Source of the DNA: Eledone cirrhosa
Taxonomy: Eukaryota
Assembly (NCBI GenBank): GCA_964016885.1
Contig: OZ024764.1
Span: 20,646,001 to 20,710,000, forward strand
Direction of reading: 5' to 3'
DNA: 64,000 nt
The notes beneath the pieces were generated by a model. The model was not told the DNA's origin, did no database searches, and saw only the letters and a list, made by a program, of their open reading frames with translations. The position numbers and the translations under genes were made by a program. Each line of letters begins with the position of its first letter. The stretch's first letter is position 1. Positions 3,276 through 64,000 of the stretch are shown one piece after another.

Positions 3276-3481
3276 CTTTAGTATATAAACTGGCCATATC
3301 TGGCCAGAATTCTCCCACATCTTTCTGTTCAAACTGGCCGTTACTGGTCACTTATACTTATGTTAAGTTATTGTTCTCAAAATAAATAACATGAAAATCT
3401 CAGATTTGACTTTATGAGAGATAAAGCATTTACTGTGAAAATATGATAGTAAATATAGAGTAATGTGAATACTAAAGGGTT

Positions 3482-3776
3482 AATCTAATGTCACTAATAA
3501 CTACTTTTATCAGTCAGTTTAATCTAATGTCACTAATAACTACTTTTATCTGTCAGTTTAATCTAATGTCACTAATAACTACTTTTATCAGTCAGTTTAA
3601 TCTAATGTCACTAATAACTACTTTTATCAGTCAGTTTAATCTAATGTCACTAATAACTACTTTTATCAGTCAGTTTAATCTAATGTCACTAATAACTACT
3701 TTTATCAGTCAGTATAATCTACTGCCACTAATAACTACTTTTATCAGTCAGTCTAATCTAATGTCACTAATAACTA
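3482..3776. repeat. 39-bp intronic minisatellite, about 7.5 copies
   Basis: Unit aatctaatgtcactaataactacttttatcagtcagttt. Confidence 0.97.
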
Positions 3777-10838: not shown

Positions 10839-10989
10839 ATGTAGGTTACCAACACTAGGGAGGGCAGCATGTCCATCAGTGTCTTCTTCTACATTAACTA
10901 CCAGGAGGTCACCACATGAGACAAAGACCAAAGACTACATTTCAAAGAAGGGTCATAAAAGAACTAAATCCAAAAGTCCTCGCAGCAAA

Positions 10990-13589: not shown

Positions 13590-16500
13590 CTCACAATTTC
13601 GGTTTTTACTGCGGATTTACCCATGCGAACTATTACACAAACTCACAGCCTTAGATTTTGTATTCCTAGCGTTTTTATTTTCCTTCTCTTTGCATGTTCA
13701 GTGCTCTTTCTCTCCCACTGTATTTACCTGCCTCTCACATGACCACACTCCTCTCCACGCACTCATCATCTTCTCACTCCTTCTACACCTTCCATCCCTC
13801 CCCTTGCTCAACCCTTACTTCCTCCTCGCGCACAGTCCACCTAGGTATTCGTTCAACCCGCCGGTGGCCCGATGTTTCGACCGAACTATCACCGGCGATT
13901 GCCGATTGCTAAAGTTGCCACCACTTTAACCTAGTCCACTCTAGGTGGGGGTGGCATGCGTCGAACGACCAAGAGACCTGCTTGGTGGAACGACTATGTG
14001 ACAACCGGTCAGCCTTCGACCTCTCATTCTCCACCAACTGCAGCACGCACGAGAGGAGCTAACTTGACCCCACCTACCCTCTCCTCTCCTTCACGGCAGA
14101 TTCCGAACGAATCCAACCCGGCCAACCACACCACCCCTACAACTGTTAGCTCACCACCCAACCTCCGCTTTAGTCCCACCGTTAGAACCACTGCTGTCTC
14201 CTTTACTGACTCACTCCCTTCACCGATTCCAACGCTGGCCCTCTACTGCCGGCTGTTGCCAGCCCGCCACCTGATTGCGCCCTCTGTGCTCGCACTAACC
14301 AGTACTTAAAGACAATTAAATGTCACCTATGCCACGCAACCTACCACAGAAGCTGTGTCGGCATCACCAAAGCTCAAGCCGAAAGGCTCCAACACTGGAC
14401 TTGTCATCGGTGCCACTTCAGGGAGCTCGGAACAGCTTTGCAGGTGCCCTCTCTAATTTACTGAAAAACGTTTGCTCGTCCAACAATAGACTGGCAGAAA
14501 TTGTTTTTGTTTCCCCTCATCTCTCTTCATGTGCACAATGCGAACTCGGGTTCCCTCAAGTCCTCTCTCAAGCGGCAGTTCCAGCTGTTTGAGTCCACCC
14601 CAACCACGTCTCATCTCAGTTCGTCTCCGAGCTCGGTGTCCACCAACAGACAACCGGTAGACCTCAAGCGAGCCGTCAATGCCAAATTCAGCGAATTTGA
14701 CATTAAAGGGGCTGTCCTCCCTTGCTCCATGCAACTCTGACTCTCGTGAGCGTCTGAAAGAGAAGCACCCCCAGATGATCAGCAACACTGGCCCGAACCA
14801 CCAGAATACTTGAGACCGGTTTACACCACCAATATCATCAGAAAGGCGATTTCATCCTTCCCCGCTGGGTCAGGCGTGGGAATTGATGTCCTTCATCCTC
14901 AACACCTCAAGGATGGTATCTCCTTATCGGCCGGTGATGCCGGACTCGAGCTCTTGGAGAGTCTGACTCAGTTTGTGAATCAGTGAACGTTCTCCCGTTC
15001 ATCCGCCCACTGTTCTTCGGTGCGAAGCTATTTGGTCTCACCAAGCCCAACGGGGACCTGCGCCGCATTGCGGTTGGCTGCACACCTCGCCGCCTCACTG
15101 CAAAGGCGTGATTGCTGTTGGTCTCCAACCCACTGGCGGAGGAATTTTCCCCCATCCAGCTGTGGGTGGGTACCAGGTTGGGATGTGTGGCTGCTGTCCA
15201 CGCTGCCAGAGCATTTGCCAACTTGCCCTCCTCATCCCCCAAGGTCATCCTCAAACTTGACCTCAGGAATGCCTTCAACTCCGTCAGCCGTAACATCGTC
15301 CTCGGCTCAGTAAGAGAGAGGGTCCCACAACTCTACCACTTTGCTTGGCAGGCTTATCGGGAGCCCTCCTACCTCTCTTTCAGTGACCAGATCATCACCT
15401 CTGCCTCAGGAGTCCAACAGGGTGACCCAGTAGGGACCCCCCCCCCCCCTCCGCACTGGACATTGATGACGTGACCAAGATGGGGGCTGAGTTGGACCTC
15501 AATGTCTGGTAGCTCGACGACGCCTGTTTGGGGGGAACTCCGGATATGGTTCACGCCACTGCCAACAGGATGGTGGAGGAGCTTGGCACCGGGGTCTCCA
15601 GATCAATAGCTCCAGATGTGAGCTCTGGATCCTCAACCACCCGGCTTCTTAACACCAACAGCTGATCGACCTGTTCGCAGAGTCCTTCCCTTCCATCACA
15701 GTCCCTCCCCTGTCGGTTTGGTGCTCCTTAGGAGCCCCAATCACAGACCTGGCTTTCGAGTCAACCATCCAATCGAAGATGGTTGGCCTTGAGCAGCTGC
15801 TGAGGAATATTGAAGATATCGAACGCCATCAAGGTTTCTTCTTACTCAGGAACTACCTGTCTATTCCTAAGCTTCTGTATCTGCTCAGGGTCAGCCCCTC
15901 TCACAGATTTCCATCCTGCCTCCAACGCTTCGACGACCTAATCTTCGAGAGACTCGAGTGTCTGGTCAATGTTAGTAAGTGTTCGTCCCTCTCTCTCTCC
16001 CCTGCTTCCTTTCCTCCACCCAAGCTTGCAGCATCCTCTCCTCTCCAACATGGACTAGTTCCAACAGGGAGTTGTGTGAAGCTCTCCAGCAATGGAGTGA
16101 GTTGGGCTTGTCTCTTCCTGAGAAGGTGGAGGACAGTCGAAGTCAGAGAACTTGGGACAGGATACGTTGGAATGCCACCTTCGACTCCCTCTTCGTCCTC
16201 TCAGATCAGTCTGCAAGGTGCCGCTTACCATCTGCCAGCGCCAAATACTTCGGTGACTGGGTCGATGCCTTACCCGTGGCCAACGTTGGAGGCCTACTCA
16301 GCCTGGATGAACTTCGTGTCTCCATCACCCTCAGAGTGGGAGCTGACGTCTGCATGGGTTTGAGATGTGGCTAACTCCTCCACTCCACAGGCCCCCACGG
16401 TCTTTCTTGCCGCCTGAATGCCGGCCACTTTGCCCGTCACACGGAGCTAAACTTTATTCTGAAGAGAGCTTTGGCCCGGGCAAACATCCCCTGTCTTGGA

Positions 16501-17001
16501 ACCATCTGGGTTGTCCAGAAGTGACGCAAAAGACCTGACAGCCTTACCCTGTGCCCCTGGTCGAGAGGCAGGTGCTTAATCTGGGACGTCACTGTTAGTG
16601 ACTCCTTTGCTCTTTCCCACATCCTTGATGCTGCGGTAAGGACGAGAGCCACAGCTTCGGCAGCCGAGCGGAGTAAGACCCTCAAATACTCTGATCTGTC
16701 GGCCAGCTACATTTTTCAGCCTGTGGCTTTCGAGACGTTTGGGGGAGTCAGGCCGCTGACTGCGAGGTTCCTTTCCTCACTGGCGGCTTGCCTTATAGAA
16801 GTAACTGGCGAAATCGCGAGGGCGCTTGGCTGTTCCAGCACCTCAGCCTCGCCATCACCCGAGGTAACACTGCCAGTGTGCTGGCTTGCCTCAAAACTCA
16901 TTAGAGAGGTTTCCCAGTACCCCTCGTTGCTGTCTTTTGCTCTGGTGTTGGCTCCGTTGTCCACCCCTTCCTTTACATTTTCTTTAATATTGCAACATTG
17001 A
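13590..17001 (+). mobile_element. Dead CRE-clade retrotransposon, copy 2 (near full length, intronic)
   Basis: Same RT and RLE motifs, plus AISSFPAGSG.GIDVL.PQHLKD and KPNGDLRRIAVG; shares its stops with copies 1 and 3; deletion of about 100 bp at 14420. Confidence 0.85.
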
Positions 17002-18285: not shown

Positions 18286-18491
18286 TTAGTATATAAAATG
18301 GCCATATCTGGCCAGAATTCTCCCACATCTTTCTGTTCAAACTGGCAGTAACTGGTCACTTATACTTATGTTAAGGTATTGTTCTCAAAAGAAATAACAT
18401 GAAAATCTCATAGATTTGATATTATGTGAGATAAAGCATTTACTGTGAAAATATAATAGTAAATATAGAGTAATGTGAATACTAAAGGGTT

Positions 18492-19332
18492 AATCTAATG
18501 ACACTAATAACTACTTTTATCTGTCAGTATAATCTAATGTCACTAATAACTACTTTTATCAGTCAGCATGATCTAATGTCACTAATAACTACTTTTATCA
18601 GTCAGTATAATCTAATGTCACTAATAACTACTTTTATCAGTCAGTATAATCTAATGTCACTAATAACTACTTTTATCAGTCAGTTTAATCTAATGTCGCT
18701 AATAACTACTTTTATCAGTCAGTATAATCTAATGTCACTAATAACTACTTTTATCTGTCAGTTTAATCTAATGTCACTAATAACTACTTTTATCAGTCAG
18801 TTTAATCTAATGTCACTAATAACTACTTTTATCAGTCAGTTTAATCTAATATAACTAATAACTACTTTTATCAGTCAGTTTAATCTAATCTCACTAATAA
18901 CTACTTTTATCAGTCAGTTTAATCTAATGTCACTAATAACTACTTTTATCTGTCAGTTTAATCTAATCTCACTAATAACTACTTTTATCAGTCAGTTTAA
19001 TCTAATGTCACTAATAACTACTTTTATCAGTCAGTTTAATCTAATGTCACTAATAACTACTTTTATCAGTCAGTTTAATATAATGTCACTAATAACTACT
19101 TTTATCAGTCAGTTTAATCTAATCTCACTAATAACTACTTTTATCAGTCAGTTTAATCTAATGTCACTAATAACTACTTTTATCAGTCAGTTTAATCTAA
19201 TGTCACTAATAACTACTTTTATCAGTCAGTTTAATCTAATCTCACTAATAACTACTTTTATCAGTCAGTTTAATCTAATGTCACTAATAACTACTTTTAT
19301 CAGTCAGTATAATCTACTGCCACTAATAACTA
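18492..19332. repeat. 39-bp minisatellite, about 21.5 copies
   Basis: Same unit as 3482-3776. Confidence 0.97.
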
Positions 19333-22980: not shown

Positions 22981-23086
22981 AACAAACTATTGTGCTATAG
23001 AATTGACAAACTTGAGGAATGTTTAATAAATGTTACTGATAGAATGTTTAATAAATGTTACTGATAGAATGTTTAATAAATGTTAC

Positions 23087-25145
23087 TGATAGAGGGACCA
23101 GCAGTGTTAGTCGAAGGTAGTATAATAAGTAAGGCAATCAAAGATATGAAGACGGGTAAGGCGGCTGGGCCTTCGGAAATAGTTGCTGAGATGCTGAAAG
23201 CCTCCGGTACGGTGGGACACACCATGGTCACCCGGATAGTAAACCAAGTCATACAGAATGGGGTTGTTCCGAAGGACTGGCGTAGCAGCATCATCGTTAA
23301 CTGTTACAAGGGTAAAGGAGACGCTCTAGATAGGAGTAACTATAGAGGCATTAAATTAATCGACCAGGTCATGAAGGTCACGGAAAAAGTAATAGCGCAA
23401 CTAATCAGAGAGAGAATTAACCTAGATGAAATGCAGTTCGGATTTGTGTCAGGCAAAAGTACCACAGACGCTCTTTTCATTGTACGACAACTACAGGAGA
23501 AGTACCTAGCTAAAAGTAAACCCCTATACTTAGCTTTTGTCGACTTGGAGAGAGCCTTCGACAGAGTCCCCCGTTCCATTATCTGGTCGGCTCTTAGAAA
23601 ACTAGGTGTTGACGAATGGCTTGTGAGAGCCATACAAGCCATGTATAAAGAAACAGTCAGCAAGGTTAGAATTAACAACGAATATAGTGAAGAGTTTAGC
23701 GTAAAAGTTGGTGTCCATCAGGGCTCTGTTCTTAGCCCCCTACTATTTATTATTGCCCTTCAGGCTATAACAGAGGAGTTCAAGACCGGCTGTCCATGGG
23801 AACTCCTATAAGCAGATGATCTAACGCTCATAGCTGAATAAATGGCCGAGCTAGAGAAGAAATTCCAAACATGGAAGCACGGCCTAGAATCAAAAGGCCT
23901 TAAAATTAACCTGGCTAAGACTAAAGTTCTAGTTTGTAGGAAAGAAAATAAGGCGCTGGTCCCCTCCGGGAAATGGCCATGCTCAGTGTGTAGGAAAGGC
24001 GTAGGTAGAAACTCCATTTTATCTCCCAAATGCAAAGTATGGGTGCATAAAAGATGTAGTGGGATCACAGGTAAGCTAACTAAGAACACAGATTTTACAT
24101 GTGGCCGGTGCTCTGGTGCAATAATTAGCAGCAAGTGCCCACGAAATACTAGCTCATTCAACTGCGCAGAGGGCTCTATAGAAATAGTGGACAGCTTCCG
24201 TTACCTGGGTGACAAAATCAGCAGTGGGGTAGGGTGCTCTGAAAGTACAGTAGCTAGAGTCAGAACTGGATGGAAAAAGTTCGGAGAGCTTATACCACTA
24301 TTAGCCGCTAAAGGGTTCTCCCTAAAAATGAAAGGCAGGTTGTATGATGCCTGCATACGAACAGCAATGTTGCATGGCAGTGAGACCTGGGCATTGTGTG
24401 CAGAGGATATACGCAGATTAGAGAGGAACGAAGCTTGCATGCTCCGCTGGATGTGTAATAGTAATATACGTGAACGGCAAAGCATAAACGAACTAAGGAA
24501 AAAATTAGAAATAAGAGGGATCAGATGTTTACTCGAGAGAAGGCTACGTTGCTATGGTCACGTGATGCACATGAAAGACGACAGCTGTATAACAAAGTGC
24601 AGGGCAATAAAGATAGATGGTAGCCACGGAGTAGGCAGACCCAGGAAAACCTGGGACGAGCTGATAAATTCCGACCTCACACACTTACACCTCTCCAAGA
24701 CAATGTCACTGGACCGAGACCTTTGGCGGTACTCAGTAACAGAGAAGACCCGCCTTACCTAAATACAAAGTAAAACCTACTAGTCAGTAGGCATCTCTAA
24801 CAAAATTCACCCCGTCCCACCACCCCCACTCTATCCACACCGCCCCCTTCAATGCAAAGTTATGTTGGTGCCACAACATCCAGGCCAAAACAAACGAGAT
24901 CGTGTAGGTGCCACGACAAAAAAATACACAGTCCATGCTGTAATGTGACCGTGTAGGCAACACGGTAAAAACCTCCCAGCCCCACACTGTAAATGTGGTT
25001 GGTGTTAGGAAGGGCATCCAGCTGTAGAAAACCCGCCAGACAGTCCTATGCGAGCAAGACAACCACTCTTGCCTCAAGTAGGAAAACCCCCGTCCAAACC
25101 AATGCAAGCGTGGAACAGGGACGTTAAACGATGATGATGATGATT
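23087..25145 (+). mobile_element. 5'-truncated RTE-clade LINE, specific to unit 2
   Basis: RT (KAAGPS, NYRGIKL, FVDLERAFDRV, GVHQGSVLSPLLF, *ADD), PHD-like Cys domain, C-terminal GRPRKTW, 3' UTR and (GAT)n tail; the empty site is visible at 6478-6500. Confidence 0.93.
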
Positions 25146-27949: not shown

Positions 27950-29799
27950 AACTAATTAAGGTCATTTAATAAAATATATTGCAGAAAGATTTGTTACTTA
28001 AATTTAGAAATATACAATGTACATACAAATGTTTTAGCAGCATTCATGAATACTAAGTAATAAAGTAGTTTGACAAAAAAGTAAAATTTAACATGTCAAC
28101 ATATACTTGCAGATTGTAACAGCAACAAATATATTGTACACAAATAACAACAGTTGAAAACTGAACATTTGTTTGCTACTATTCAACCATTTTTAGTATT
28201 TTGTCCTGAGGCTTGACACTTCTTTTTGTTGACAATGTTTGGCATGTCTGGCTGAAATGTCTGTACAGTTCCAACTTTGATCAGATGACAAGTGTTGATC
28301 AGTCAGCCTTGTTCTCTGAGAAGTTTTTGTTAATTTCATGAAGGAAAATAACTGTCCACTCACATAGGTAGAACCAAACATTGCCATAATCTTTGTGACA
28401 AACTTTCTGATGTTAATAAACTTTTCAGGAAGGTATGAAAAGAAACCAGGTATCCCCACTACAAGATACTTTGTTCTGAGTGTAGAATCTGACTGCATTT
28501 CCAATAGTTCCATCTGCAGGCATTCTTCTGCCTTCATCAAAGGTGAATGGTGCTGAGAATAATGTAAACTGATGTTCAAAAAATGAGAAATCACAAAATC
28601 TTTCCTGAAATTTCTTTAACAACAATTCCAGGTGACTGTCATACTTAGCTAAGCTAAATACAGACTCAGTATTGGCAGTGTTTTTCAGTTCTTTGCACAT
28701 AGGGAAATGAACTAAATTTTCATCTGACAACGGAGATTTCCATAAGCTTAGTTTTCTAATGAAGCACTTGATGTCATCATTCAACTGATTGATGGGTTTG
28801 TTTTTACCTTGTAATTTCAAGTTAAGATCAGTTAATTGTGCAGTAATATCCACAGCAAAAATCAGGTGTTGGAGCCAACTTTCATCTTTTATTTCATCTG
28901 TGTTTTAACCTTTTATCTCCAAAAACACAATTATTTCTTGTCTCAACAAATAGAATCTTTTCAGCACTTTGTGACATGTCAACCAGCAGACTTCTGTGTA
29001 GAATGGAACATCGGTGAACTGATTATCCATATCTTCTAATAGAAACATGTTCAAACCTTGATGATACAGCCTTTAACTGTTGTTTCAGATCACCTGACAT
29101 TTCATTAATCTGTTCAGCAACAGTGTTCCTGGTTAATGAAATGTCTTTGAATAACTCTGCTTTCTCTGGACAATTTCAGCTGTTTTTACAAGACATTGCT
29201 TTACAAAATCTCCTTCACTGTAAGATTTCCCACTCATGGCAATCATTTGACTGAGTTCATAGCTTGCAGTAACGGAAGTGACATTCTCTTCCTGAATTAA
29301 CATAAAACAGGTCTATTGCTGTGTCAAGTTAGACTTCAATTCCTTGAGTCTTGAAACTCACATTGGGCCTTAATATTTATCGTAAGATCGAGGGTTTGTT
29401 TCATGATGTCTTTTTGAATTGTACTCTTTTGGCCTGGCGATGTAGTTGTTGCAAATTAAACAGTATATCTTTCTGTTCACCATTGGGCAAAAATACTGTA
29501 ATTCCCACTTTTCTTGAAACACTTGCCCTTCTTCGTTCAATTTCCTTTTTCTCTTAGCTGGAGGAGCACTAACCATTTCAAAAACGAAATCTTTTGAAAT
29601 TTTGAAAGAAAGTTTTCTGTTAATGAGCTGCACGTGATTAATGGAAGTTAAAAGTAGTTGACAAAATTTGCAAAAAAAAAATAATTGTATCGAAAATGTT
29701 TTAAATTTTATATTACGAAAATGAAACATGCTCGCACTGTAAAAACCTAAGTGTGGGCCGCAGGTTTGCTTGCCAAGGGCCGCATGTTTGACATGTCTG
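27950..29799 (-). mobile_element. Decayed hAT (Buster/GTF2IRD2-like) transposon, copy 2
   Basis: Homologous to 9000-10838; contains DITAQLTDLNLKLQGKN. Confidence 0.85.
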
Positions 29800-29954
29800 A
29801 TGTAGGTTACCAACACTAGGGAGGGCAGCATGTCCTTCAGTGTGTTCTGCTACATTAACTACCAGGAGGTCACCACATGAGACAAAGACTACATTTCAAA
29901 GAAGGGTCATAAAAGAACTAAATACGAAAGTCCTCACAGCAACAAGCAAATAAT

Positions 29955-31884: not shown

Positions 31885-31974
31885 TATATGTGTGTGTGTC
31901 TGTGGCCTTAATACCCTAGTCACAGACACACTCATACACACACACACACACACAAGTAATAATTTCGTTCAACA

Positions 31975-33110
31975 ACATGAGGGTGTGGGGGCATATTGTC
32001 TATATGCTTCAGCTTGTACCCGTGGGGTGGTCGGGTCTTCTGTATTACTGCATGACGCCAGAGGTCACGGTCGTGTGTCATCGCCTTTGAGAGGTGTAAT
32101 TGGGTAAGGTCGGCTTTTATTACCTCATCCCAGGTCTTCTTGGGTCTCCCCACTCCACGGCTTCCATCGACTTCTAGTGCTCTGCACCTTTTTATGCAGC
32201 TGTCATCCTTCATACGCATCACATGTCCATACCAACGCAACCGCCTCTCCTGCACACAGCATTTGATTCCTCTTATGCTCAGTCTCTCTCTCAATTCGTT
32301 TATGCTTTGCCGTTCACGTATATTACTATTACACATCCAACAGAGCATGCAGGCTTCGTTTCTTTCTAATCTACGTAAGTCTTCCACCTTCAGCGCCCAG
32401 GTCTCACTACCATGTAACATTGCTGTTTGTATGCACGTATCATACAGTCATGAACTTTTTCCATCCCATTCTTACCCTAGTTATTGTACTTTCCGAACAC
32501 CCACCTCCGCTCCTAATTCGGTCACCTGGGTAGCAAGAGCTGTCTACTGTTTCTACAGAGCCCTCTCAGAGATTGGTGGTACTTATTTCCTGTGGCTGTT
32601 TGCTGCTTGCTGTCCCAGCACAACTGCTACATGTGAAGCATGCTTCATTCTTAATTAAGCTTCATGAGATCCCGCTACATCTCTTGTGTACCCATTGTTT
32701 GTATTTGGGGCAGAGGATGGAGTTCCTACCTACACCTTTCCCACATACTAAGCAAGGCCATTTCCCTGAGGGGATCTGGGTTCTGCTTTCTCGTCTACTT
32801 ACAAGGACCTTAGTCTTTGTCAGGTTGACTTTGAGTCCCTTTCTTTCTAGTCGCTGCTTCCAAGTTTGGAATTTCTTCTCTAGTTCTACCATAGAGTCAG
32901 CTATAAGTGTGAGGTCATCAGCATACAGGAGTTCCCATGGGCATCCGGTCTTAAACTCCTCCGTTATTGCCTGCAGAACTATGATGAACAGGAGAGGGCT
33001 AAGAACAGAGCCCTGGTGGACACTGACCCGTATGCTAAATTCCTCTCTCTAGTCATTGCTAATGCTAACTCTGCTGACTGCTCCCCTATACATGGCTGGT
33101 ACAGCTTTCA
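31975..33110 (-). mobile_element. RTE LINE 3' fragment with internal deletions
   Basis: MLHGSETWAL..RRLERNEACML, RLRWYGHVMRM, WELLYADD; related to 23087-25145. Confidence 0.88.
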
Positions 33111-36285: not shown

Positions 36286-36495
36286 CCCTTTAGTATATAA
36301 ACTGGCCATATCTGGCCAGAATTCTCCCCCATCTTTCTGTTCAAACTGGCCGTAACTGGTCATTTATACTTATGTTAAGGTATTGTTCTCAAAATAAATA
36401 ACATGAAAATCTCATAGATTTGATATTATGTGAGATAAAGCATTTACTGTGAAAATATAATAGTAAATATAGAGTAATGTGAATACTAAAGTGTT

Positions 36496-37640
36496 AATCT
36501 AATGTCACTAATAACTACTTTTATCAGTCAGTATAATCTAAAGTCACTAATAACTACTTTTATCAGTCAGTATAATCTAATGTCACTAATAACTACTTTT
36601 ATCAGTCAGTTTAATCTAAAGTCACTAATAACTACTTTTATCAGTCAGTTTAATCTAAAGTCACTAATAACTACTTTTATCAGTCAGTATAATCTAAAGT
36701 CACTAATAACTACTTTTATCAGTCAGTATAATCTAAAGTCACTAATAACTACTTTTATCAGTCAGTATAATCTAATGTCACTAATAACTACTTTTATCAG
36801 TCAGTATAATCTAATGCCACTAATAAATACTTTTATCAGTCAGTTTAATCTAATGTCACTAATAACTACTTTTATCAGTCAGTATAATCTAATGCCACTA
36901 ATAAATACTTTTATCAGTCAGTTTAATCTAATGTCACTAATAACTACTTTTATCTGTCAGTATAATCTAATGTCACTAATAACTACTTTTATCAGTCAGT
37001 ATAATCTAATGTAATAACTACTTTTATCAGTCAGTATAATCTAATGTCACTAATAACTACTTTTATCAGTCAGTATAATCTAAAGTCACTAATAACTACT
37101 TTTATCAGTCAGTATAATCTAAAGTCACTAATAACTACTTTTATCAGTCAGTATAATCTAATGTCACTAATAACTACTTTTATCAGTCAGTATAATCTAA
37201 TGCCACTAATAAATACTTTTATCAGTCAGTATAATCTAATGCCACTAATAAATACTTTTATCAGTCAGTTTAATCTAATGTCACTAATAACTACTTTCAT
37301 CAGTCAGTATAATCTAATGTCACTAATAACTACTTTTATCTGTCAGTATAATCTAATGTCACTAATAACTACTTTTATCAGTCAGTATAATCTAATGTAA
37401 TAACTACTTTTATCAGTCAGTATAATCTAATGTCACTAATAACTACTTTTATCAGTCAGTATAATCTAATGTCACTAATAACTACTTTTATCAGTCAGTA
37501 TAATCTAATGTCACTAATAACTACTTTTATCTGTCAGTATAATCTAATGTCACTAATAACTACTTTTATCTGTCAGTATAATCTAATGTCACTAATAACT
37601 ACTTTTATCAGTCAGTATAATCTACTACCACTAATAACTA
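36496..37640. repeat. 39-bp minisatellite, about 30 copies
   Basis: Same unit, with aagtca, atgcca..aat and 34-bp variants. Confidence 0.97.
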
Positions 37641-41290: not shown

Positions 41291-42078
<788 letters not shown>

Positions 42079-42719
42079 CTGTGTCAATATGAAACTCATT
42101 ACATCATACTACAACAAATGTGTAGATCCATCATCCTTGCTAAAACTGGGGATAACCTTGTAGGTTTTACCTATGACAGGGACCATAAACACCAGGTTTC
42201 CATTTTTGAAGTAGTGTTTGAAGATTTTGTGTAAATTGAAGTTTTTCACATTAAACTTTGATTTATTATACTTTCACAGGTAAGATATATATTTGTATTT
42301 TTAGTAAAGGTTGGGAACTTCTGTAATTTAAACCTGCCAATAAAATGAAAACTTTTGTTGTTGCTAGTCAGACATTGATATTAATTCTATTGTCCTGTAC
42401 ATTGTCTCAAATATCACAGATTAAACAGATTTTAACAATATCAACAGAAATCAATAACTTGTAAGCCTAATATTTAGCTTCCATTTTAACTATTTGATAT
42501 TGTTGTTCCCCTCCTGTCTCTTCAGGTCTTTTAGATTTCAACTTCTATCTACTGTACTATTCCATCACCAAGGCAACATTCATCTGGCTGGCAGCTTACA
42601 TCAGCTACAGATCTCATCAGTGGTTCACAACAGGCTGTCTGAAAGAAACTTCCAGATATCTTCTATGTCATAGCTATCAATCTCCTCCTCCTTATCATAT
42701 TTATCATGTAGAACATCTC

Positions 42720-43215
42720 TGAATTTATATTTAACAGGGAGATCTTTTACCGTCCCTACCCTTTTCTCTAGGTTGTCTTGTATCTCTCTCACAGTCCCTA
42801 TATATATCTTATATTTAACAGGGAGATCTTTTACTATCCCTACCCTTTTCTCTAGATTGTCTTGTATCTCTTTCACAGTCCCTCTAGATCTTATATTTAA
42901 CAGGGAGATCTTTTACTAGCCCTACCCTTTTCTCTAGGTTTTCTTTTACCTCTCTCACAGTCCCTCTAGATCTTATATTTAACAGGGAGATCTTTTACTA
43001 GCCCTACCCTTTTCTCTAGGTTTTCTTTTACCTCTCTCACAGTCCCTCTAGATCTTATATTTAACAGGGAGATCTTTTACTCTCCAACCCTTTTCTCTAG
43101 GTCGTCTTGTACCTCCCTCACAATCCCTGTAGATCTTATATTTAACAGGGAGATCTTTTACTCTCCAATCCTTCTACAGATAGTCTTGTATATGTCATTC
43201 CCTCTAGATCTTACA
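42720..43215. repeat. 82-bp minisatellite derived from RTE coding sequence, about 6 copies
   Basis: Period 82 (42878, 42960, 43042); unit tccctctagatcttatatttaacagggagatcttttac...ctctcacag. Confidence 0.9.
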
Positions 43216-52099: not shown

Positions 52100-55000
52100 A
52101 CTCACAATTTCGGTTTTTACTGCGGATTTACCCATGCGAACTATTACACAAACTCACAGCCTTAGATTTTGTATTTCTAGCGTTTTTATTTTCCTTCTCT
52201 TTGCACGTTCAGTGCTCTTTCTCTCCCACTGTATTTATCTGCCTCTCACATGACCACACTCCTCTCCACGCACTCATCATCTTCTCACTCCTTCTCCACC
52301 TTCCATCCCTCCCCTTGCGCAACCCTTACTTCCTCCTCGCGCACAGCCCACCTAGGTATTCGTTCAACCCGCCGGTGGCCCGATGTTTCGACCGAACTAT
52401 TACCGGCGATTGCCGATTGCTAAAGTTGCCACCACTTTAACCTTGTCCACTCTAGGTGGCAGTGGCATGCGTCGAACAACCAAGAGACCTGCTTGGTGGA
52501 ACGACTAATGTGACAACCGGTCAGCCTTCGACCTCTCATTCTCCACCAACTGCAGCACGCACGAGAGGAGCTAACTTGACCCCACCTACCCCTCTTCTCC
52601 TTCACGGCAGATTCCGAACGAATCCAACCCGGCCAACAACACCACCCCTACAACTGTTAGCTCACCACCCAACCCCCGCTTTAGTCCCACCGTTAGAACC
52701 ACTGCTGTCTCCTTTACTGACTCACTCCCTTCACCGAATTCCAACGCTGGCCCTCTACTGCCGGCTGTTGCCAGCCCACCACCTGATTGCGCCCTCTGTG
52801 CCTGCACTAACCAGTACTTAAAGACAATTAAATGTCACCTATGCCACGCAAGCTACCACAGAAGCTGTGTCGGCATCACCAAAGCTCAAGCCGAAAGGCT
52901 CCAACACTGGACCTGTCATCGGTGCCACTTCAGCTCCGACTATTCCGTGGGGATGACCAACACTCTACCGACGACTTTGCCACAACCCCTAGGGCTTCTC
53001 CAAATCAAAGCTCGTTAACCGAACCCTTAAGGTAGCTCGGAACAGCTTTGCAGGTGCCCTCTCTAATTTACTGAAAAACGTTTGCTCGTCCAACAATAGA
53101 CTGGCAGAAATTGTTTTTGTTTCCCCTCATCTCTCTTCACGTGCACAATGCGAACTCGGGTTCCCTCAAGTCCTCTCTCAAGCGGCAGTTCCAGCTGTTT
53201 GAGTCCACCCCAACCACGTCTCATCTCAGTTCGTCTCCGAGCTCGGTGTCCACCAACAGACAACCGGTAGACCTCAAGCGAGCCGTCAATGCCAAATTCA
53301 GCGAATTTGACATTAAAGGGGCTGTCCTCCCTTGCTCCATTGCAACTCTGACTCTCGTGAGCGTCTGAAAGAGAAGCACCCCCCAGATGATCAGCAACAC
53401 TGGCCCGAACCACCAGAATACTTTAGACCGGTTTACACCACCGATATCATCAGAAAGGCGATTTCATCCTTCCCCGCTGGGTCAGGCGCGGGAATTGACG
53501 TCCTTCGTCCTCAACACCTCAAGGATGGTATCTCCTTATCGGCCGGTGATGCCGGACTCGAGCTCTTGGAGAGTCTGACTCAGTTTGTGAATCAGTGAAC
53601 GTTCTCCCGTTCATCCGCCCACTGTTCTTCGGTGCGAAGCTATTTGGTCTAACCAAGCCCAACGGGGACCTGCGCCGCATTGCGGTTGGCTGCACACCAC
53701 GCCGCCTCACTGCAAAGGCGTGATTGCTGTTGGTCTCCAACCCACTGGCGGAGGAATTTTCCCCCATCCAGCTGTGGGTGGGTACCAGGTTGGGATGTGT
53801 GGCTGCTGTCCACGCTGCCAGAGAATTTGCCAACTTGCCCTCCTCATCCCCCAAGGTCATCCTCAAACTTGACCTCAGGAATGCCTTCAACTCCGTCAGC
53901 CGTAACATCGTCCTCGGCTCAGTAAGAGAGAGGGTCCCACAACTCTACCACTTTGCTTGGCAGGCTTATCGGGAACCCTCCTACCTCTCTTTCAGTAACC
54001 AGATCATCACCTCTGCCTCAGGAGTCCAACAGGGTGACCCACTCGGGACCCCCCCCCCCGCACTGGACATTGATGACGTCACCAAGATGGGGGCTGAGTT
54101 GGACCTCAATGTCTGGTAGCTCGACGACGCCTGTTTGGGGGGAACTCCGGATATGGTTCTCGCCACTGCCAACAGGATGGTGGAGGAGCTTGGCGCCGGG
54201 GTCTCCAGATCAATAGCTCCAAATGTGAGCTCTGGATCCTCAACCACCCGGCTTCTTAACACCAACAGCTGATCGACCTGTTCGCAGAGTCCTTCCCTTC
54301 CATCACAGTCCCACCCCCGTCGGCTTGGTGCTCCTTAGGAGCCCCAATCACAGACCTGGCCTTCGAGTCAACCATCCAATCGAAGATGGTTGGCCTTGAG
54401 CAGCTGCTGAGGAATATTGAAGATATCGAACCCCATCAAGGTTTCTTCTTACTCAGGAACTACCTGTCTATTCCTAAGCTTCTGTATCTGCTCAGGGTCA
54501 GCCCCTCTCACAGATTTCTATCCTGCCTCCAACGCTTCGACGACCTAATCTTCGAGAGACTCGAGTGTCTGGTCAATGTTAGTAAGTGTTCGTCCCTCTC
54601 TCTCCCCTGCTTCCTTTCCTCCACCCAAGCTTGCAGCATCCTCTCCTCTCCAACATGGACTAGTTCCAACAGGGAGTTGTGTGAAGCTCTCCAGCAATGG
54701 AGTGAGTTGGGCTTGTCTCTTCCTGAGAAGGTGGAGGACAGTCGAAGTCAGAGAACTTGGGACAGGATACGTTGGAATGCCACCTTCGACTCCCTCTTCG
54801 TCCTCTCAGATCAGTCTGCAAGGTGCCGCTTACCATCTGCCAGTGCCAAATACTCCGGTGACTGGGTCGATGCCTTACCCGTGGCCAACGTTGGAGGCCT
54901 ACTCAGCCTGGATGAACTTCGTGTCTCCATCACCCTCAGAGTGGGAGCTGACGTCTGCATGGGTTTGAGATGTGGCTAACTCCTCCACTCCACAGGCCTC

Positions 55001-55640
55001 CACGGTCTTTCTTGCCGCCTGAATGCCGGCCACTTCGCCCGTCACACGGAGCTAAACTTTATTCTGAAGAGAGCTTTGGCCCGGGCAAACATCGCCTCAG
55101 TCTTGGAACCATCTGGGTTGTCCAGAAGTGACGGCAAAAGACCTGACGGCCTTACCCTGTGCCCCTGGTCGAGAGGCAGGTGCCTAATCTGGGACGTCAC
55201 TGTTAGTGACTCCTTTGCTCTTTCCCACATCCTTGATGCTGCGGTAAGGACGAGAGCCACAGCTTCGGCAGCCGAGCGGAGTAAGACCCTCAAATACTCT
55301 GATCTGTCGGCCAGCTACATTTTTCAGCCTGTGGCTTTCGAGACGTTTGGGGGAGTCGGGCTGCTGACTGCGAGGTTCCTTTCCTCACTGGCGGCTCGCC
55401 TTATAGAGGTAACTGGCGAAATCGCAAGGGCGCTTGGCTGTTCCAGCACTTCAGCCTCGCCATCACCCGAGGTAACACTGCCAGTGTGCTGGCTTGCCTC
55501 GAAACTCATTAGAGAGGTTTCCCTGTACCCCTCGTTGCTGTCTTTTGCTCTGGTGTTGGCTCCGTTGTCCACCCCTTCCTTTACATTTTCTTTAATATTG
55601 CAACATTGAAGGAATTTATCTTTCATTGTATCATCCTTTA
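52100..55640 (+). mobile_element. Dead CRE-clade retrotransposon, copy 3 (most complete)
   Basis: RT and RLE motifs as above; a deletion at 55640 removes the inverted fragment and most of the MITE. Confidence 0.85.
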
Positions 55641-56305: not shown

Positions 56306-56512
56306 CCTTTAGTATATAAACTGGCCATATCTGGCCAGACTTCTCCCACATCTTTCTGTTCAAACTGGCCCTAACTGGTCACTTATACTTATGTTAAGGT
56401 ATTGTTCTCAAAATAAATAACATGAAAATCTCAGATTTGATATTATGTGAGATAAAGCATTTACTGTGAAAATATAATAGTAAATATAGAGTAATGTGAA
56501 TACTAAAGTGTT

Positions 56513-59500
56513 AATCTAATGTCACTAATAACTACTTTTATCAGTCAGTTTAATCTAATGTCACTAATAACTACTTTTATCTGTCAGTATAATCTAATGT
56601 CACTAATAACTACTTTTATCTGTCAGTTTAATTTAATGTAATAACTACTTTTATCAGTCAGTTTAATCTAATGTCACTAATAACTACTTTTATCTGTCAG
56701 TATAATCTAATGTCACTAATAACTACTTTTATCTATCAGTATAATCTAATGTCACTAATAACTACTTTTATCAGTCAGTTTAATCTAATGTAATAACTAC
56801 TTTTATCAGTCAGTATAATCTAATGTCACTAATAACTACTTTTATCTGTCAGTTTAATCTAATGTCACTAATAACTACTTTTATCAGTCAGTTTAATCTA
56901 ATGTCACTAATATACTACTTTTATCAGTCAGTTTAATCTAATGTAATAACTACTTTTATCAGTCAGTTTAATCTAATGTCACTAATAACTACTTTTATCA
57001 CTCAGTTTAATCTAATGTCACTAATAACTACTTTTATCAGTCAGTTTAATCTAATGTAATAACTACTTTTATCAGTCAGTTTAATCTAATGTCACTAATA
57101 ACTACTTTTATCACTCAGTTTAATCTAATGTCACTAATAACTACTTTTATCAGTCAGTTTAATCTGTCACTAATAACTACTTTTATCAGTCAGTTTAATC
57201 TGTCACTAATAACTACTTTTATCAGTCAGTTTAATCTGTCACTAATAACTACTTTTATCAGTCAGTTTAATCTAATGTCACTAATAACTACTTTTATCAG
57301 TCAGTATAATCTAATGTCACTAATAACTACTTTTATCAGTCAGTTTAATCTGTCACTAATAACTACTTTTATCAGTCAGTTTAATCTGTCACTAATAACT
57401 ACTTTTATCAGTCAGTTTAATCTAATGTCACTAATAACTACTTTTATCAGTCAGTTTAATCTAAAGTCACTAATAACTACTTTTATCAGTCAGTTTAATC
57501 TAATGTCACTAATAACTACTTTTATCAGTCAGTTTAATCTGTCACTAATAACTACTTTTATCAGTCAGTTTAATCTAATGTCACTAATAACTACTTTTAT
57601 CAGTCAGTTTAATCTAATGTCACTAATAACTACTTTTATCAGTCAGTTTAATCTAATGTCACTAATAACTACTTTTATCAGTCAGTTTAATCTAATGTCA
57701 CTAATAACTACTTTTATCAGTCAGTTTAATCTAATGTCACTAATAACTACTTTTATCAGTCAGTTTAATCTAATGTAATAACTACTTTTATCAGTCAGTT
57801 TAATCTAATGTCACTAATAACTACTTTTATCAGTCAGTTTAATCTAATGTCACTAATAACTACTTTTATCAGTCAGTTTAATCTGTCACTAATAACTACT
57901 TTTATCAGTCAGTTTAATCTGTCACTAATAACTACTTTTATCAGTCAGTTTAATCTAATGTCACTAATAACTACTTTTATCAGTCAGTTTAATCTAATGC
58001 CACTAATAACTACTTTTATCAGTCAGTTTAATCTAATGTAATACCTACTTTTATCAGTCAGTTTAATCTAATGTCACTAATAACTACTTTTATCAGTCAG
58101 TTTAATCTAATGTCACTAATAACTACTTTTATCAGTCAGTTTAATCTAATGTAATAACTACTTTTATCAGTCAGTTTAATCTAATGTCACTAATAACTAC
58201 TTTTATCAGTCAGTTTAATCTAATGTAATAACTACTTTTATCAGTCAGTTTAATCTAATGTAATAACTACTTTTATCAGTCAGTTTAATCTAATGTCACT
58301 AATAACTACTTTTATCAGTCAGTTTAATCTAATGTCACTAATAACTACTTTTATCAGTCAGTTTAATCTAATGTAATAACTACTTTTATCAGTCAGTTTA
58401 ATCTAATGTCACTAATAACTACTTTTATCAGTCAGTTTAATCTAATGTAATAACTACTTTTATCAGTCAGTTTAATCTAATGTCACTAATAACTACTTTT
58501 ATCAGTCAGTTTAATCTAATGTAATAACTACTTTTATCAGTCAGTTTAATCTAATGTAATAACTACTTTTATCAGTCAGTTTAATCTAATGTCACTAATA
58601 ACTACTTTTATCAGTCAGTTTAATCTAATGTCACTAATAACTACTTTTATCAGTCAGTTTAATCTAATGTAATAACTACTTTTATCAGTCAGTTTAATCT
58701 AATGTCACTAATAACTACTTTTATCAGTCAGTTTAATCTAATGCCACTAATAACTACTTTTATCAGTCAGTTTAATCTAATGTAATAACTACTTTTATCA
58801 GTCAGTTTAATCTAATGTCACTAATAACTACTTTTATCAGTCAGTTTAATCTAATGCCACTAATAACTACTTTTATCAGTCAGTTTAATCTAATGTAATA
58901 ACTACTTTTATCAGTCAGTTTAATCTAATGTCACTAATAACTACTTTTATCAGTCAGTTTAATCTAATGCCACTAATAACTACTTTTATCAGTCAGTTTA
59001 ATCTAATGTAATAACTACTTTTATCAGTCAGTTTAATCTAATGTCACTAATAACTACTTTTATCAGTCAGTTTAATCTAATGTCACTAATAACTACTTTT
59101 ATCAGTCAGTTTAATCTAATGTCACTAATAACTACTTTTATCAGTCAGTTCAATCTAATGTCACTAATAACTACTTTTATCAGTCAGTTTAATCTAATGA
59201 CACTAATAACTACTTTTATCAGTCAGTATAATCTAATGTCACTAATAACTACTTTTATCAGTCAGTTTAATCTAATGTCACTAATAACTACTTTTATCAG
59301 TCAGTTCAATCTAATGTCACTAATAACTACTTTTATCAGTCAGTTTAATCTAATGACACTAATAACTACTTTTATCAGTCAGTATAATCTAATGCCACTA
59401 ATAACTACTTTTATCAGTCAGTTTAATCTAATGTCACTAATAACTACTTTTATCAGTCAGTATAATCTAATGTCACTAATAACTACTTTTATCAGTCAGT

Positions 59501-59563
59501 TTATTCTAATGTCACTAATAACTACTTTTATCAGTCAGTATAATCTACTGCCACTAATAACTA
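56513..59563. repeat. 39-bp minisatellite, about 80 copies, with 36-bp and 34-bp variants
   Basis: Same unit; about 3.05 kb. Confidence 0.98.
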
Positions 59564-60518
59564 ACCTATGTTAGGCAGCACATTCTTCACCAAAGAAGGC
59601 CTTAGTATTTATTACAGTCCATTTATCAATATAGAAATATCATATGAAATTTGTACTGATGTATTACAAGTTTCTGAGTATCTTATAATGTTCTTTTATT
59701 ATTTCAGAATACCAGAGGACATTGGCATTAAAGAGCACGTTACATCAGACATATCCTCAATATTTACCATTTCTAAAATATTACCCATCATTTTCAAATA
59801 ATTTTGAAAACACTCAACACTTTGAAGGGATTTAGTAATATAACTAAATTTCTCAGTATTAAGCTGCTATTTGGAACATAACTTTGCACAATTTCATGAA
59901 GTTACAATGGAAAGTTTTTAGATAAATATAAAGACTGGTATGAAAAGGATAAAACACTTTTAAATCAGTTGTTTCATCAACACCATTATTTATAGACTAA
60001 AGGAAGCTGTTATACAGAACAGATACAACCTTGTTTATATAAATCTATGGGAGAAATACTGGGAAATATTTCTCGTAAACTCAATAACACTTCTATTCTT
60101 TGCTGTCTGGAATATGTAGAAGATACAAAATAAAGCTTAAGAAATTTACACATGATTTTATGAGATCTTCATATATTGACAAAGTTGATAGTAGATGGAA
60201 CTACAGGAGTAGAAATATTTCCATTATTACAGGAATAACTAATTAAATAAAAACCAGAAAAATTAGATTCTTCACTGTCTGGAATATGTACAAGATGATT
60301 TTATATGTATATTAAACTTGAAGAGATCTACAAAACAGTTTGTATCATCTTTAAATGTAAAGAAAGACCAAAGTTGATAGAAATATATCTGGAGGAATAT
60401 GTTTTAGGAATAATATTATAAACATAAAGAAGAAAAATATCCATATATTAAGAGGAGAAAAATATTAAAACTGAATTATGTGAGAAACTTAGAAGATTGA
60501 TATTTTTTAGTGGGAGTT

Positions 60519-62681
60519 ATGTCGAAAAATATAGTAAAATCACCATTCCACTGTGATATCTGTGGTAAATTATTCTCTAAAAATACTAAATTAACTAGAC
60601 ATAAACTAAGTCATAAAGTAGAGAAGCCATATCACTGTGATATCTGTGGTAAATTATTCTCTAAAAATATTAAATTAACTAGACATAAACTAAGTCATAC
60701 AGAAGAGAAGCCATATCACTGTCATATCTGTGGTAAATCATTCTCTAAAAATACTAAATTAATTAGACATAAACTAATTCATGCAGAAGAGAAGCCATAT
60801 CACTGTGATATCTGTGGTAAATTATTCTCTAAAAATAGTAAGTTAACTAGACATAAACTAAGTCATACAGAAGAGAAACCATATGACTGTGATATCTGTG
60901 GTAAATCATTCTCTAAAAATACTAAATTAACTAGACATAAACTAATTCATGCAGAAGAGAAGCCATATCACTGTGATATCTGTGGTAAATCATTCTCTAA
61001 AAATACTAAATTAATTAGACATAAACTAAGTCATACTGAAGAGAAACCATATGACTGTGATATCTGTGGTAAATCATTCTCTAAAAATACTAAATTAACT
61101 AGACATAAACTAATTCATGCAGAAGAGAAGCCATATCACTGTGATATCTGTGGTAAATCATTCTCTAACAATACTAAATTAACTAGACATAAACTAAGTC
61201 ACACAGAAGAGAAGCCATATCACTGTGATATCTGTGGTAAATCATTCTCTAAAAATACTAAATTAACTAGACATAAACTAAGTCATACAGAAGAGAAACC
61301 ATATGACTGTGATATCTGTGGTAAATTATTCTCTAAAAATACTAAATTAACTAGACATAAACTAATTCATGCAGAAGAGAAGCCATATCACTGTGATATC
61401 TGTGGTAAATCATTCTCTAAAAATACTAAATTAACTAGACATAAACTAATTCATGCAGAAGAGAAGCCATATCACTGTGATATCTGTGGTAAATCATTCT
61501 CTAAAAATACTAAATTAATTAGACATAAACTAAGTCATACTGAAGAGAAACCATATGACTGTGATATCTGTGGTAAATCATTCTCTAAAAATACTAAATT
61601 AACCAGACATAAACTAATTCATGCAGAAGAGAAGCCATATCACTGTGATATCTGTGGTAAATCATTCTCTAAAAGTAATAAATTGACTAGACACAATTGT
61701 AGTCACACAGGAGAGAAGCCATGTAACTATATCTTTGGTAAACCATTTTCTGAAAGTAATAACTTAGCTAGAGACAAACTAAGTCACACAGAGGAGAAAC
61801 CATATCACAATGATATTTGTGGTAAATATTTCTCTTATGTGAGTACCTTAACAAATTACAAACATATTCCTGCAGGAGAAACACCATATTATTGTGATGT
61901 CTGTGGTAAATCATTCTCTAAAAATACAAAGTTAACAAGACACAAAGAAAGACATTCAGGAGAGAAGCTATATCACTGTGATATCTGTGATAAATCATTC
62001 TTTCATAGTACTACCTTAACTAAACACCAACATATTCATACAGGGAAGAAACCATATGACTGTGATATCTGTGGTAAATCATTTTCTCAAAGTTATACCT
62101 TAACTGTTCATAAGCGTATTCATACAGGCGAGAAGCCATATCACTGTGATATCTGTGGTAAATCATTCCCCCTTAGTACTAACCTCACTACTCACAAACG
62201 TATTCATACAGGTGAGAAGCCATATCAATGTGACATCTGTGATAAATCCTTCTGTCAAAGTGGTAACTTAACTATCCACAAACGTATTCATACAGGAGAG
62301 AAGCCACATCATTGTGATATCTGTGGTAAATCATTCTCTAACAGAAGCTGCTTCACTAAACATCAACGTATTCATACAGGAGAGAAGCCTTATCACTGTG
62401 ATGTCTGTGATAAATCATTCAGCCAAAGTAGTAGCTTAACTCATCACAAACGTCTTCATACAGGAGAGAAGCCATATCACTGTGACATCTGTGGTAAATC
62501 ATTCTCTAAAAGTGGTAACTTAACTACCCACAAACGTATTCATACAGGAGAGAAGCCACACCACTGTGACATCTGTGGTAAATCATTCTCTCACAGTAGT
62601 ACCTTAACTATCCACAAATGTACTCAAACCGGAGAGAAACCATATCACTGTGGTAAAGCATTCTCCCCCGTAGTAACTTAA
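60519..62681 (+). CDS. Poly-C2H2 zinc-finger protein ZNF4 (25 finger units, about 22 canonical; N-terminal 14 homogenised)
   Basis: Intact ORF from the ATG homologous to the other units; acceptor at 59707; fingers 15, 16 and 25 are degenerate. Confidence 0.92.
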
Positions 62682-63359: not shown

Positions 63360-63910
63360 TGAATTTATATTTAACAGGGAGATCTTTTACTGTCCCTACC
63401 TCTTTCTCTAGGTTGCCTTGTACCTCTCTCACAGTCCCTCTAGATCTTATATTTAACAGGGAGATCTTTTACTGTCCCTACCCTTTTCTCTAGGTTGTCT
63501 TGTACCTCTCTCACAGTCCTTGTAGATCTTATATTTAACAAGATCTTTTACTGTCCGTACCCTTTTCTCCAGGTTGTCTTGTACGAGTCTCACAGTCCCT
63601 CTAGATCTTATATTTAACAGGGAGATCTTTTACTGTCCCTACCCTTTTCTCTAGGTTGTCTTGTACCACTCTCACAGTCCCTCTAGATCTTATATTTAAC
63701 AGGGAGATCTTTTACTGTCCCTACCTCTCTCACAGTCCCTCTAGATCTTATATTTAACAGGGAGATCTTTTACTATCCCTACCCTTTTCTCTAGGTTGTC
63801 TTGTACCTCTCTCACAGTCCCTCTAGATCTTATATTAAACAGGGAGATCTTTTACTCTCCAACCCTTCTTTCTCCGGATAGTCTTGTATCTGTCAGTCCC
63901 TCTAGATATT
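63360..63910. repeat. 82-bp RTE-derived minisatellite, about 7 copies
   Basis: Same unit as 42720-43215. Confidence 0.9.
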
Positions 63911-64000
63911 ACACCTAGTATCTAGTCTATGTTGAGTGGTATGTCCTTCTCCAGTAAAGGAGTTAATATTCCCAACCATCTGTCTATGCTGTTTTTTATG

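What the first reader, a model, noticed from the sequence alone, without database searches (positions are those of the whole stretch)
60519..61710. ZNF4: 13-14 consecutive fingers with one recognition helix (KNTKLTR), a candidate simple-repeat reader
Seen: fingers 1-13 (plus variant 14 and finger 17) carry K/T/K/R at helix positions -1/2/3/6 with rare changes, and use non-canonical TEEKPY/AEEKPY linkers that often alternate as a 168-bp doublet. Two broken fingers separate this block from a diverse 9-finger C-terminal block. No paralog in the window uses this helix. Known: each C2H2 finger reads about 3 bp, and R at position 6 usually specifies G. Inference: a bipartite protein whose N-terminal block could bind about 40 bp of a G/T-rich triplet-periodic repeat (microsatellite, RTE tail or satellite) or RNA, having expanded as a coding minisatellite in the manner of PRDM9. 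Finger 17 may be the seed.
Basis: partly seen in the sequence, partly recalled or inferred. Interest (0 to 1): 0.72.

Follow-up and report, generated by a model that had tools for sequence, protein, structure and literature searches.

The report
Repeated GG-reading zinc-finger block family
This gene, likely from an octopus relative, starts with 13-14 near-identical zinc fingers, a block shared in 3 to 17 copies by 18 young neighbouring genes; the fingers are predicted to read GG-N triplet repeats such as (GGT)n weakly, but binding is untested and the block likely grew mostly by copying errors.

Summary
The block is real but not unique to this gene. Fingers 1-14 all keep Lys3 and Arg6, 10 of the first 13 are exactly K/T/K/R, and none of their 13 linkers is TGEKP. 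The window lies in a young cluster with at least 195 gene starts. Eighteen of 109 genes examined carry the same N-terminal block in 3-17 copies, and no other helix forms runs this long. The seed is finger 1 (31 of 32 carriers), not finger 17. Published Lys3/Arg6 helices read GGG and GGC, so the predicted site is (GGN)n; (GGT)13 occurs about 49,500 times in the genome, but (TAG)13 is commoner. Leu at position 9 and Gly-to-Glu linkers predict weak binding per finger. Block dN/dS is about 0.9, and broken units were copied along. Only Lys3/Arg6 escape the family's usual turnover (3 of 64 versus 94 of 562 changes; post hoc). It is not PRDM9-like. Best reading: mutation-driven amplification of a GG-reading finger; a selected, length-sensing microsatellite reader stays possible (about 0.2). 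The scan had noted finger shuffling in this cluster before, not this block.

The parts
59708..60518 (+). Likely 5' untranslated part of the last exon, beginning after a pyrimidine-rich AG at 59706-59707; stops in all three frames, 14 ATGs
   Evidence: Sequence; frames; a contig of run X3 aligns from 59708 with 30 unmatched letters before it, while an X1 contig runs across; no protein homologue for two of the three frames
60519..62681 (+). Finger-only C2H2 ORF, 720 aa, family leader MSKNIVKSP
   Evidence: leader pattern has 195 exact hits in the genome
60546..61637 (+). Fingers 1-13: amplified Lys3/Arg6 block, Leu at helix position 9, x-E/V-E-K-P linkers; 11 distinct 84-nt units
61638..61721 (+). 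Finger 14 (KSNKLTR, TGEKP linker), fixed end of the block in all 17 module genes
61722..61886 (+). Broken fingers 15-16, shared by 17 genes; 18 amino-acid-changing versus 3 silent variants among them
61887..61970 (+). Finger 17: older Lys3/Arg6 relative; helix protein identical to the block, with 3 silent differences in helix codons plus one at the following His
61971..62642 (+). Fingers 18-25: diverse array with mostly canonical linkers (finger 25 lacks its last His); shared in part with L025, L026, L027, L028, L036
62643..62681 (+). Terminal stub; one C fewer in a C run than in paralogue L026, so the frame ends early (real or homopolymer error)

Best explanation
One first finger with Lys3 and Arg6 has been copied, likely by unequal crossing-over, into an N-terminal block of 3-17 units in 18 young paralogues, and the block is predicted to read (GGN)n triplet repeats such as (GGT)n weakly, with its length likely set mostly by mutation rather than selection. 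Shown: the block, its spread, its variable copy number, private duplications in separate genes, and loss of the canonical Arg9 and linker Gly. Inferred: unequal crossing-over and gene conversion as the copying process; GG recognition from analogous helices; low affinity per finger, so that binding would rest on many fingers over a long tract; the C-terminal array would give each paralogue a second, unique specificity.
For: Copy number 17, 14, 14, 13, 9, 9, 8, 8, 7, 7, 7, 5 x5, 3, 3; the four closest paralogues (17, 14, 13, 9 units) lie within 1.3% in upstream DNA. Identical 84-nt units are shared between genes and private variants are duplicated within genes. L024 (14 units) and L036 (7) fall outside the 12-gene clade of the upstream tree, so the block expanded or moved more than once (bootstrap not settled, L024 only 38% aligned). 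Neighbouring block units differ by 4.8 nt versus 13.0 in other genes, a better substrate for mispairing. Near-neutral change: 14 silent versus 39 amino-acid alleles over 58 distinct units, ratio 0.91; contact codons 1 versus 8. Broken units were copied too: Cys-to-Arg three times in L024, 7 of 160 units without a ligand; a helix-deleted unit in L121 and L122. GG readout: RSDKLVR is the GGG module (PMC6146835), ESSKLKR a GGC binder (PMC4838357). Lys3 stands in 114 and Arg6 in 111 of 115 positionally defined units, while -1 and 2 vary (92 and 86 of 115); changes at 3+6 are 3 of 64 versus 94 of 562 in other fingers, p=0.0097. Older fingers keep Arg6 under AGA, CGA and CGG codons (L123). Weak interface: position 9 is Leu in 117 of 165 such fingers versus Arg in 842 of 1079 others; linker Gly is replaced in 123 of 165 versus kept in 1002 of 1081; both residues support binding (PMC11327367, PMC7293014).
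Against: No binding data. The 3+6 test is post hoc (one of six pairs, about 0.06 after correction at this cut-off, 0.02 and 0.24 at the other two), its changes are not independent, and 3 of 64 is not clearly below a uniform 2 of 28. Lys at -1 reading G/T is recalled, not from a call. Against pure mutation: only this helix forms runs above 5 among 106 genes, though at nucleotide level other genes reach 7 fingers (4 of 91) and only 4 of 18 block genes exceed that. Target abundance does not discriminate: (GGT)13 49,525, (GAT)13 25,632, (TAG)13 160,131 overlapping hits. Six of 18 block genes end abnormally, versus 25 of 91 others.
Confidence: 0.45

Rival explanations
1. The block does not bind DNA sequence-specifically: with canonical linkers and Arg9 lost it is a neutral passenger, a spacer, or a basic RNA- or protein-binding arm, and the C-terminal fingers do the targeting.
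For: [quoted passage not shown]
Against: Zinc ligands and core change less (3 silent, 3 amino-acid, ratio 0.26; small counts); Lys3/Arg6 kept across silent divergence in finger 17 and L123, where linkers are Gly-type; linker Lys is invariant in 115 units.
Confidence: 0.3
2. The block is a selected, length-sensing reader of (GGT)n/(GGN)n microsatellites: weak fingers summed over many units would favour long tracts, and the subfamily would coat or stabilise them.
For: The only helix amplified past 5 among 106 genes; long arrays in at least two upstream backgrounds; GG positions fixed and third-base position free; about 49,500 perfect 39-bp sites; four paralogues encode block-only proteins; precedent in Zscan4 on (CA)n (PMC7083622, abstract start).
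Against: No purifying signal over the contact codons as a set; 13 genes keep only 1-2 units; one early duplication plus runaway mispairing explains the tail; no near-identical unit among pieces listed for three other organisms (not proof of absence).
Confidence: 0.2
3. The array is an assembly expansion.
For: Copy number of this one gene was not checked with spanning reads (no listed piece spans the stretch); a 1-nt C-run difference near the stop may be a read error.
Against: 11 of 13 units differ in sequence; 18 genes with different unit orders; no N in the window; helix-plus-linker contig with 1 difference in a second sample, X3; X1 contig identical over 61650-61789.
Confidence: 0.03

Closest known systems
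Coleoid cephalopod expanded C2H2 zinc-finger clusters (PMC12513265, part 1 of 7 read; PMC9068888, passages)
   Same: Large lineage-specific cluster of multi-finger C2H2 genes; here at least 195 leader hits, the first 100 listed all within 3.3 Mb of one contig.
   Different: The parts read describe gene numbers, clusters and expression, not a subfamily with one amplified helix. The taxon here is inferred (finger style, recalled; 3.0-Gb genome; earlier notes), not shown: the Octopus hits reach only 54% identity.
PRDM9 zinc-finger minisatellite (PMC5519329, passages; PMC3890296, listing)
   Same: Near-identical 84-nt units turning over by duplication and conversion.
   Different: No SET, KRAB or SSXRD match in the ORF; PRDM9 concentrates diversity at contact residues (0.33-1.0 in rows seen), this block does not (0.13; long paralogues 0.06-0.18); a multigene subfamily, not one locus.
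Zscan4, a natural microsatellite-binding C2H2 protein (PMC7083622, abstract start and outline)
   Same: Precedent for a multi-finger protein reading a simple repeat, as predicted here.
   Different: Zscan4 binds (CA)n with direct evidence and has a SCAN domain; here the site is predicted only, triplet-periodic, and the protein is fingers alone.
Lys3/Arg6 helices RSDKLVR (GGG module, PMC6146835) and ESSKLKR (GGC binder, PMC4838357); one passage each
   Same: Lys at 3 and Arg at 6 with a 5'-GG triplet.
   Different: Different residues at -1, 1 and 2, and used singly in engineered arrays; here Leu9 and Glu-linkers in 13 copies.
TE-targeting metazoan ZNF expansions, KRAB-ZNF and FiNZ-ZNF (PMC10547256, passages)
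   Same: Young paralogues with variable contact residues; the C-terminal array and the rest of the family fit (diversity share median 0.39 in 84 genes).
   Different: No effector domain found in the ORF; the N-terminal block is homogenised rather than diversified.

Membership tests
Classical tandem C2H2 array | C-x2-C-x12-H-x3-H fingers with core Phe and Leu at 28-residue period | tested here: met
   22 intact fingers; PF00096 E=2.5e-109
Classical tandem C2H2 array | TGEKP-like linkers with Gly at +2 | tested here: not met
   0 of 13 in the block; met in most C-terminal linkers
Classical tandem C2H2 array | Arg at helix position 9 (common binding mode) | tested here: not met
   Leu in fingers 1-13; 117 of 165 such fingers
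PRDM9 | KRAB, SSXRD and PR/SET domains | tested here: not met
   None among the 25 shown of 28 Pfam matches of the ORF; upstream exons were not located
PRDM9 | Near-identical finger units (coding minisatellite) | tested here: met
   4.8 differences per 84 nt among fingers 1-13
PRDM9 | Amino-acid diversity concentrated at DNA-contact positions | tested here: not met
   0.133 at -1/2/3/6, against 0.33-1.0 in the table rows seen and 4/28 = 0.14 if uniform
PRDM9 | Allelic copy-number variation among individuals | not testable with these tools
   Only paralogue variation seen
Coleoid C2H2 cluster genes | Many recent paralogues in a genomic cluster | tested here: met
   (upstream DNA 94-99% identical in the pairs aligned)
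Coleoid C2H2 cluster genes | Cephalopod origin | tested here: inconclusive
   Protein searches were swamped by generic fingers; inferred only
Coleoid C2H2 cluster genes | Nervous-system expression | not testable with these tools
   No tissue-labelled data available
Microsatellite-binding zinc fingers (Zscan4 type) | Direct sequence-specific binding to a simple repeat | not testable with these tools
   Predicted from analogues only; sites exist

The most novel reading that the evidence does not exclude
A young subfamily has evolved natural homopolymeric finger arrays that measure (GGT)n/(GGN)n microsatellite length: weakened finger-finger joints make binding depend on many units at once, paralogues with 3 to 17 units form a ladder tuned to different tract lengths, and the C-terminal array or the block-only forms direct them to subsets of tracts.
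Probability: 0.2. Interest if true: 0.8.

Novelty: new variant of a known kind. Interest (0 to 1): 0.45.

Why it matters
Targets of the expanded cephalopod-type zinc fingers are almost all unknown, because each array predicts a long, uncertain site. This subfamily gives one simple prediction, (GGN)n, and a natural series of 1 to 17 units, so one binding assay can tell whether such arrays read microsatellites or are by-products of recombination. If they read tract length, this would be a natural counterpart of engineered repeat-binding arrays and a link between a repeat-rich genome and its finger expansion. If not, it shows that homogeneous arrays can arise with no selection and should not be over-read.

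Tried and rejected
No RNA holder listed. Run X3 (same organism label, second sample, kind not on record) holds block and module contigs and looks spliced at 59708, but its nature and this gene's own share are not shown; the module piece listed matches the commoner paralogue allele. Three other organisms: no listed piece crosses helix and linker with fewer than 5-8 differences per 50-70 nt; only 8 pieces a run are listed, so absence is not shown. Two whole-protein homologue searches gave only generic fingers of 28-55% identity. Idea that the 811 nt before the ATG is a decayed N-terminal domain: no hit for either of two frames searched, dropped. Atlas look-up returned nothing usable. Single-sequence AlphaFold model of fingers 10-18: mean pLDDT 41.6, uninformative. 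PDB searches: generic arrays, none of the displayed alignments has this helix. Finger 17 as seed: rejected. Strict 168-bp period: only partial. Telomeric TTAGGG as target: rejected by reasoning, one helix cannot read both triplets. Local RTE tail as target: no (GGT)4 or longer in the window. A-to-I editing of the A-rich helix codons: cannot be told from contigs; A-to-G differences appear in DNA runs too. An earlier count said 11 of 13 exact helices; the right count is 10.

Full report
Observation. The ORF at 60519-62681 encodes 720 residues of C2H2 fingers behind a 9-residue leader. Fingers 1-13 are K/T/K/R at -1/2/3/6 in 10 of 13 cases, all 14 first fingers keep Lys3 and Arg6, and no linker of fingers 1-13 is TGEKP. 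Two broken fingers follow, then finger 17 with the same helix, seven more intact diverse fingers, a finger lacking its last His and a stub. The 168-bp doublet is partial. The other arrays of the window lack the helix.

Context. The window is G000:C25:20646001-20710000 of a 3.0-Gb assembly. The family leader has 195 exact hits, of which the 100 listed lie at 19.1-22.4 Mb of C25. A degenerate pattern for the helix has 82 hits in 21 loci, all on C25, and the broken-finger module has 17 hits. I fetched the 100 listed genes and the helix or module carriers, 109 genes in the final set; most of the 95 unlisted leader hits were not examined, and carriers beyond 22.4 Mb were picked by the helix or module. 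Eighteen genes have a block of 3-17 units and 13 have 1-2. The finger type is first in 31 of 32 carriers, so finger 1 is the likely seed; finger 17 is an older relative with three silent helix differences. The organism is likely an octopod; this is inferred from recalled finger style, genome size and earlier notes, as protein searches gave only generic hits.

Is it unusual? Of 106 genes, the ten longest single-helix runs (6-18) are all of this type and others stop at 5. At nucleotide level, with periods of 1-4 fingers allowed, other genes reach 7 (4 of 91) and block genes 16, with 4 of 18 above 7. So the block is the extreme tail of a process that acts on the whole family. It is no assembly artefact as a class: units differ (11 of 13 distinct), orders differ among genes, and a second sample holds the unit; the exact count in this gene was not verified.

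How it arose. The family is young: upstream DNA is 94-99% identical in the pairs aligned. The four closest paralogues carry 17, 14, 13 and 9 units within 1.3% upstream divergence, and L024 and L036 carry blocks on other upstream backgrounds (rough support, L024 partly aligned). Private variants are repeated within genes, including a Cys-to-Arg unit three times in L024. Unequal crossing-over with conversion between paralogues is the inferred process; neighbours differing by 4.8 rather than 13.0 nt favour it.

Selection. Over 58 distinct units from the 17 module genes, defined by position and not by helix (one helix-deleted unit each in L121 and L122 left out), there are 14 silent and 39 amino-acid alleles, ratio 0.91; contact codons 1 and 8; ligands and core 3 and 3. 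Uniform helices thus need no selection. Yet changes at positions 3+6 are 3 of 64, against 94 of 562 in 622 other distinct fingers (p=0.0097; 0.040 and 0.0035 at the other two distance cut-offs; post hoc among six pairs), while -1 and 2 change at the family rate. This shows lack of the family's diversification at 3 and 6, not purifying selection: 3 of 64 is near the uniform 2 of 28. Older fingers in L123 keep Arg6 under three codons. The PRDM9 statistic (PMC5519329, passages) is 0.13 for the block, 0.39 for fingers 17-24 and median 0.39, minimum 0.32, in 84 other genes.

What it would read. RSDKLVR is the GGG module in a designed protein (PMC6146835, one passage) and ESSKLKR was chosen as a GGC binder, with noted non-specificity of helices at that step (PMC4838357, one passage). 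Both share Lys3/Arg6, so the block is predicted to read (GGN)n over about 40 bp; G or T under Lys-1 is recalled. (GGT)13 has 49,525 overlapping hits, but (GAT)13 has 25,632 and (TAG)13 160,131, so availability proves nothing. Two departures predict weak binding: the linker Gly, which caps the helix (PMC11327367, passages; PMC4169156, passages), is Glu or Val, and position 9, where Arg gives the most functional mode (PMC7293014, passages), is Leu. A long, weak, periodic array would need long tracts, or would not bind specifically at all.

Gene form and expression. A contig of run X3 starts at 59708, just after a pyrimidine-rich AG, with 30 unmatched letters, which suggests an exon starting there; X3's kind is not on record, so this is a hint. 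The 811 nt up to the ATG are closed in all frames, hold 14 ATGs and gave no homologue for two frames. No effector domain was found in the ORF; upstream exons were not located.

Known systems and novelty. The gene fits the clustered cephalopod-type C2H2 expansion (PMC12513265, part 1 of 7; PMC9068888, passages) and TE-linked ZNF turnover (PMC10547256, passages). It shares PRDM9's minisatellite mechanics but fails its domain and diversity tests. Zscan4 is the precedent for a microsatellite reader (PMC7083622, abstract start and outline). Paper searches listed nothing on this block; one search found no paper holding the helix with 'zinc finger'. Supplements and subscription papers were not searched. 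Earlier notes of this scan describe finger shuffling in this cluster but none names this helix.

Verdict. A real, subfamily-wide, recently amplified block with a sharp prediction, GG-N repeats, and mixed evidence on selection. Mutation-driven amplification of a weak GG reader 0.45; non-specific or passenger block 0.3; selected length-sensing reader 0.2; artefact 0.03. New variant of a known kind; interest 0.45.

Noticed in passing
L039, L040, L121, L122: Four paralogues share a 2-nt deletion in the broken module that ends the protein just after the Lys3/Arg6 block, giving block-only proteins of 3-6 intact fingers.
   Followed up: partly
L121:2259-2970, L122:2321-3032: One block unit has lost 21 nt covering the recognition helix, in frame.
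   Followed up: partly
L024:4479-6434: 14-unit block without the broken module, on a different upstream background, with a Cys-to-Arg unit at positions 7, 11 and 14.
   Followed up: yes
L123 (minus strand): Divergent family member (leader with Asp) whose fingers 1-3 and 6 keep Lys3/Arg6, with Arg coded AGA, CGA and CGG and mostly Gly linkers; may show the older state.
   Followed up: partly
L081, L124: Finger arrays that end in a poly-His run, apparently a CAC/CAT triplet repeat inside the coding frame.
   Followed up: no
window 56511-59563 (also 3480-3776, 18490-19332, 36495-37640): A 39-bp minisatellite upstream of each ZNF exon with 80.6, 7.6, 21.6 and 29.6 copies; it is open in one frame for up to 242 codons.
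   Followed up: no
window 63365-63911 and 42725-43166: 82-bp tandem repeat downstream of two ZNF genes.
   Followed up: no
window 501-1850, 15653-17001, 54260-55609: Co-duplicated GC-rich retroelement remnants resembling non-LTR elements with a restriction-like endonuclease (label recalled, not tested).
   Followed up: no
window 23080-24762 and 31932-33052; 10187-10888 and 28425-29849: Broken RTE-like reverse-transcriptase frames and hAT-like transposase remnants (labels recalled, not tested).
   Followed up: no
window 41291-42100: A second, frameshifted finger array right behind the third ZNF gene, without the family leader.
   Followed up: no
G000 whole genome: Very long triplet microsatellites are abundant: 13-unit hits of TAG 160,131, GGT 49,525, GAT 25,632, overlapping counts.
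   Followed up: partly
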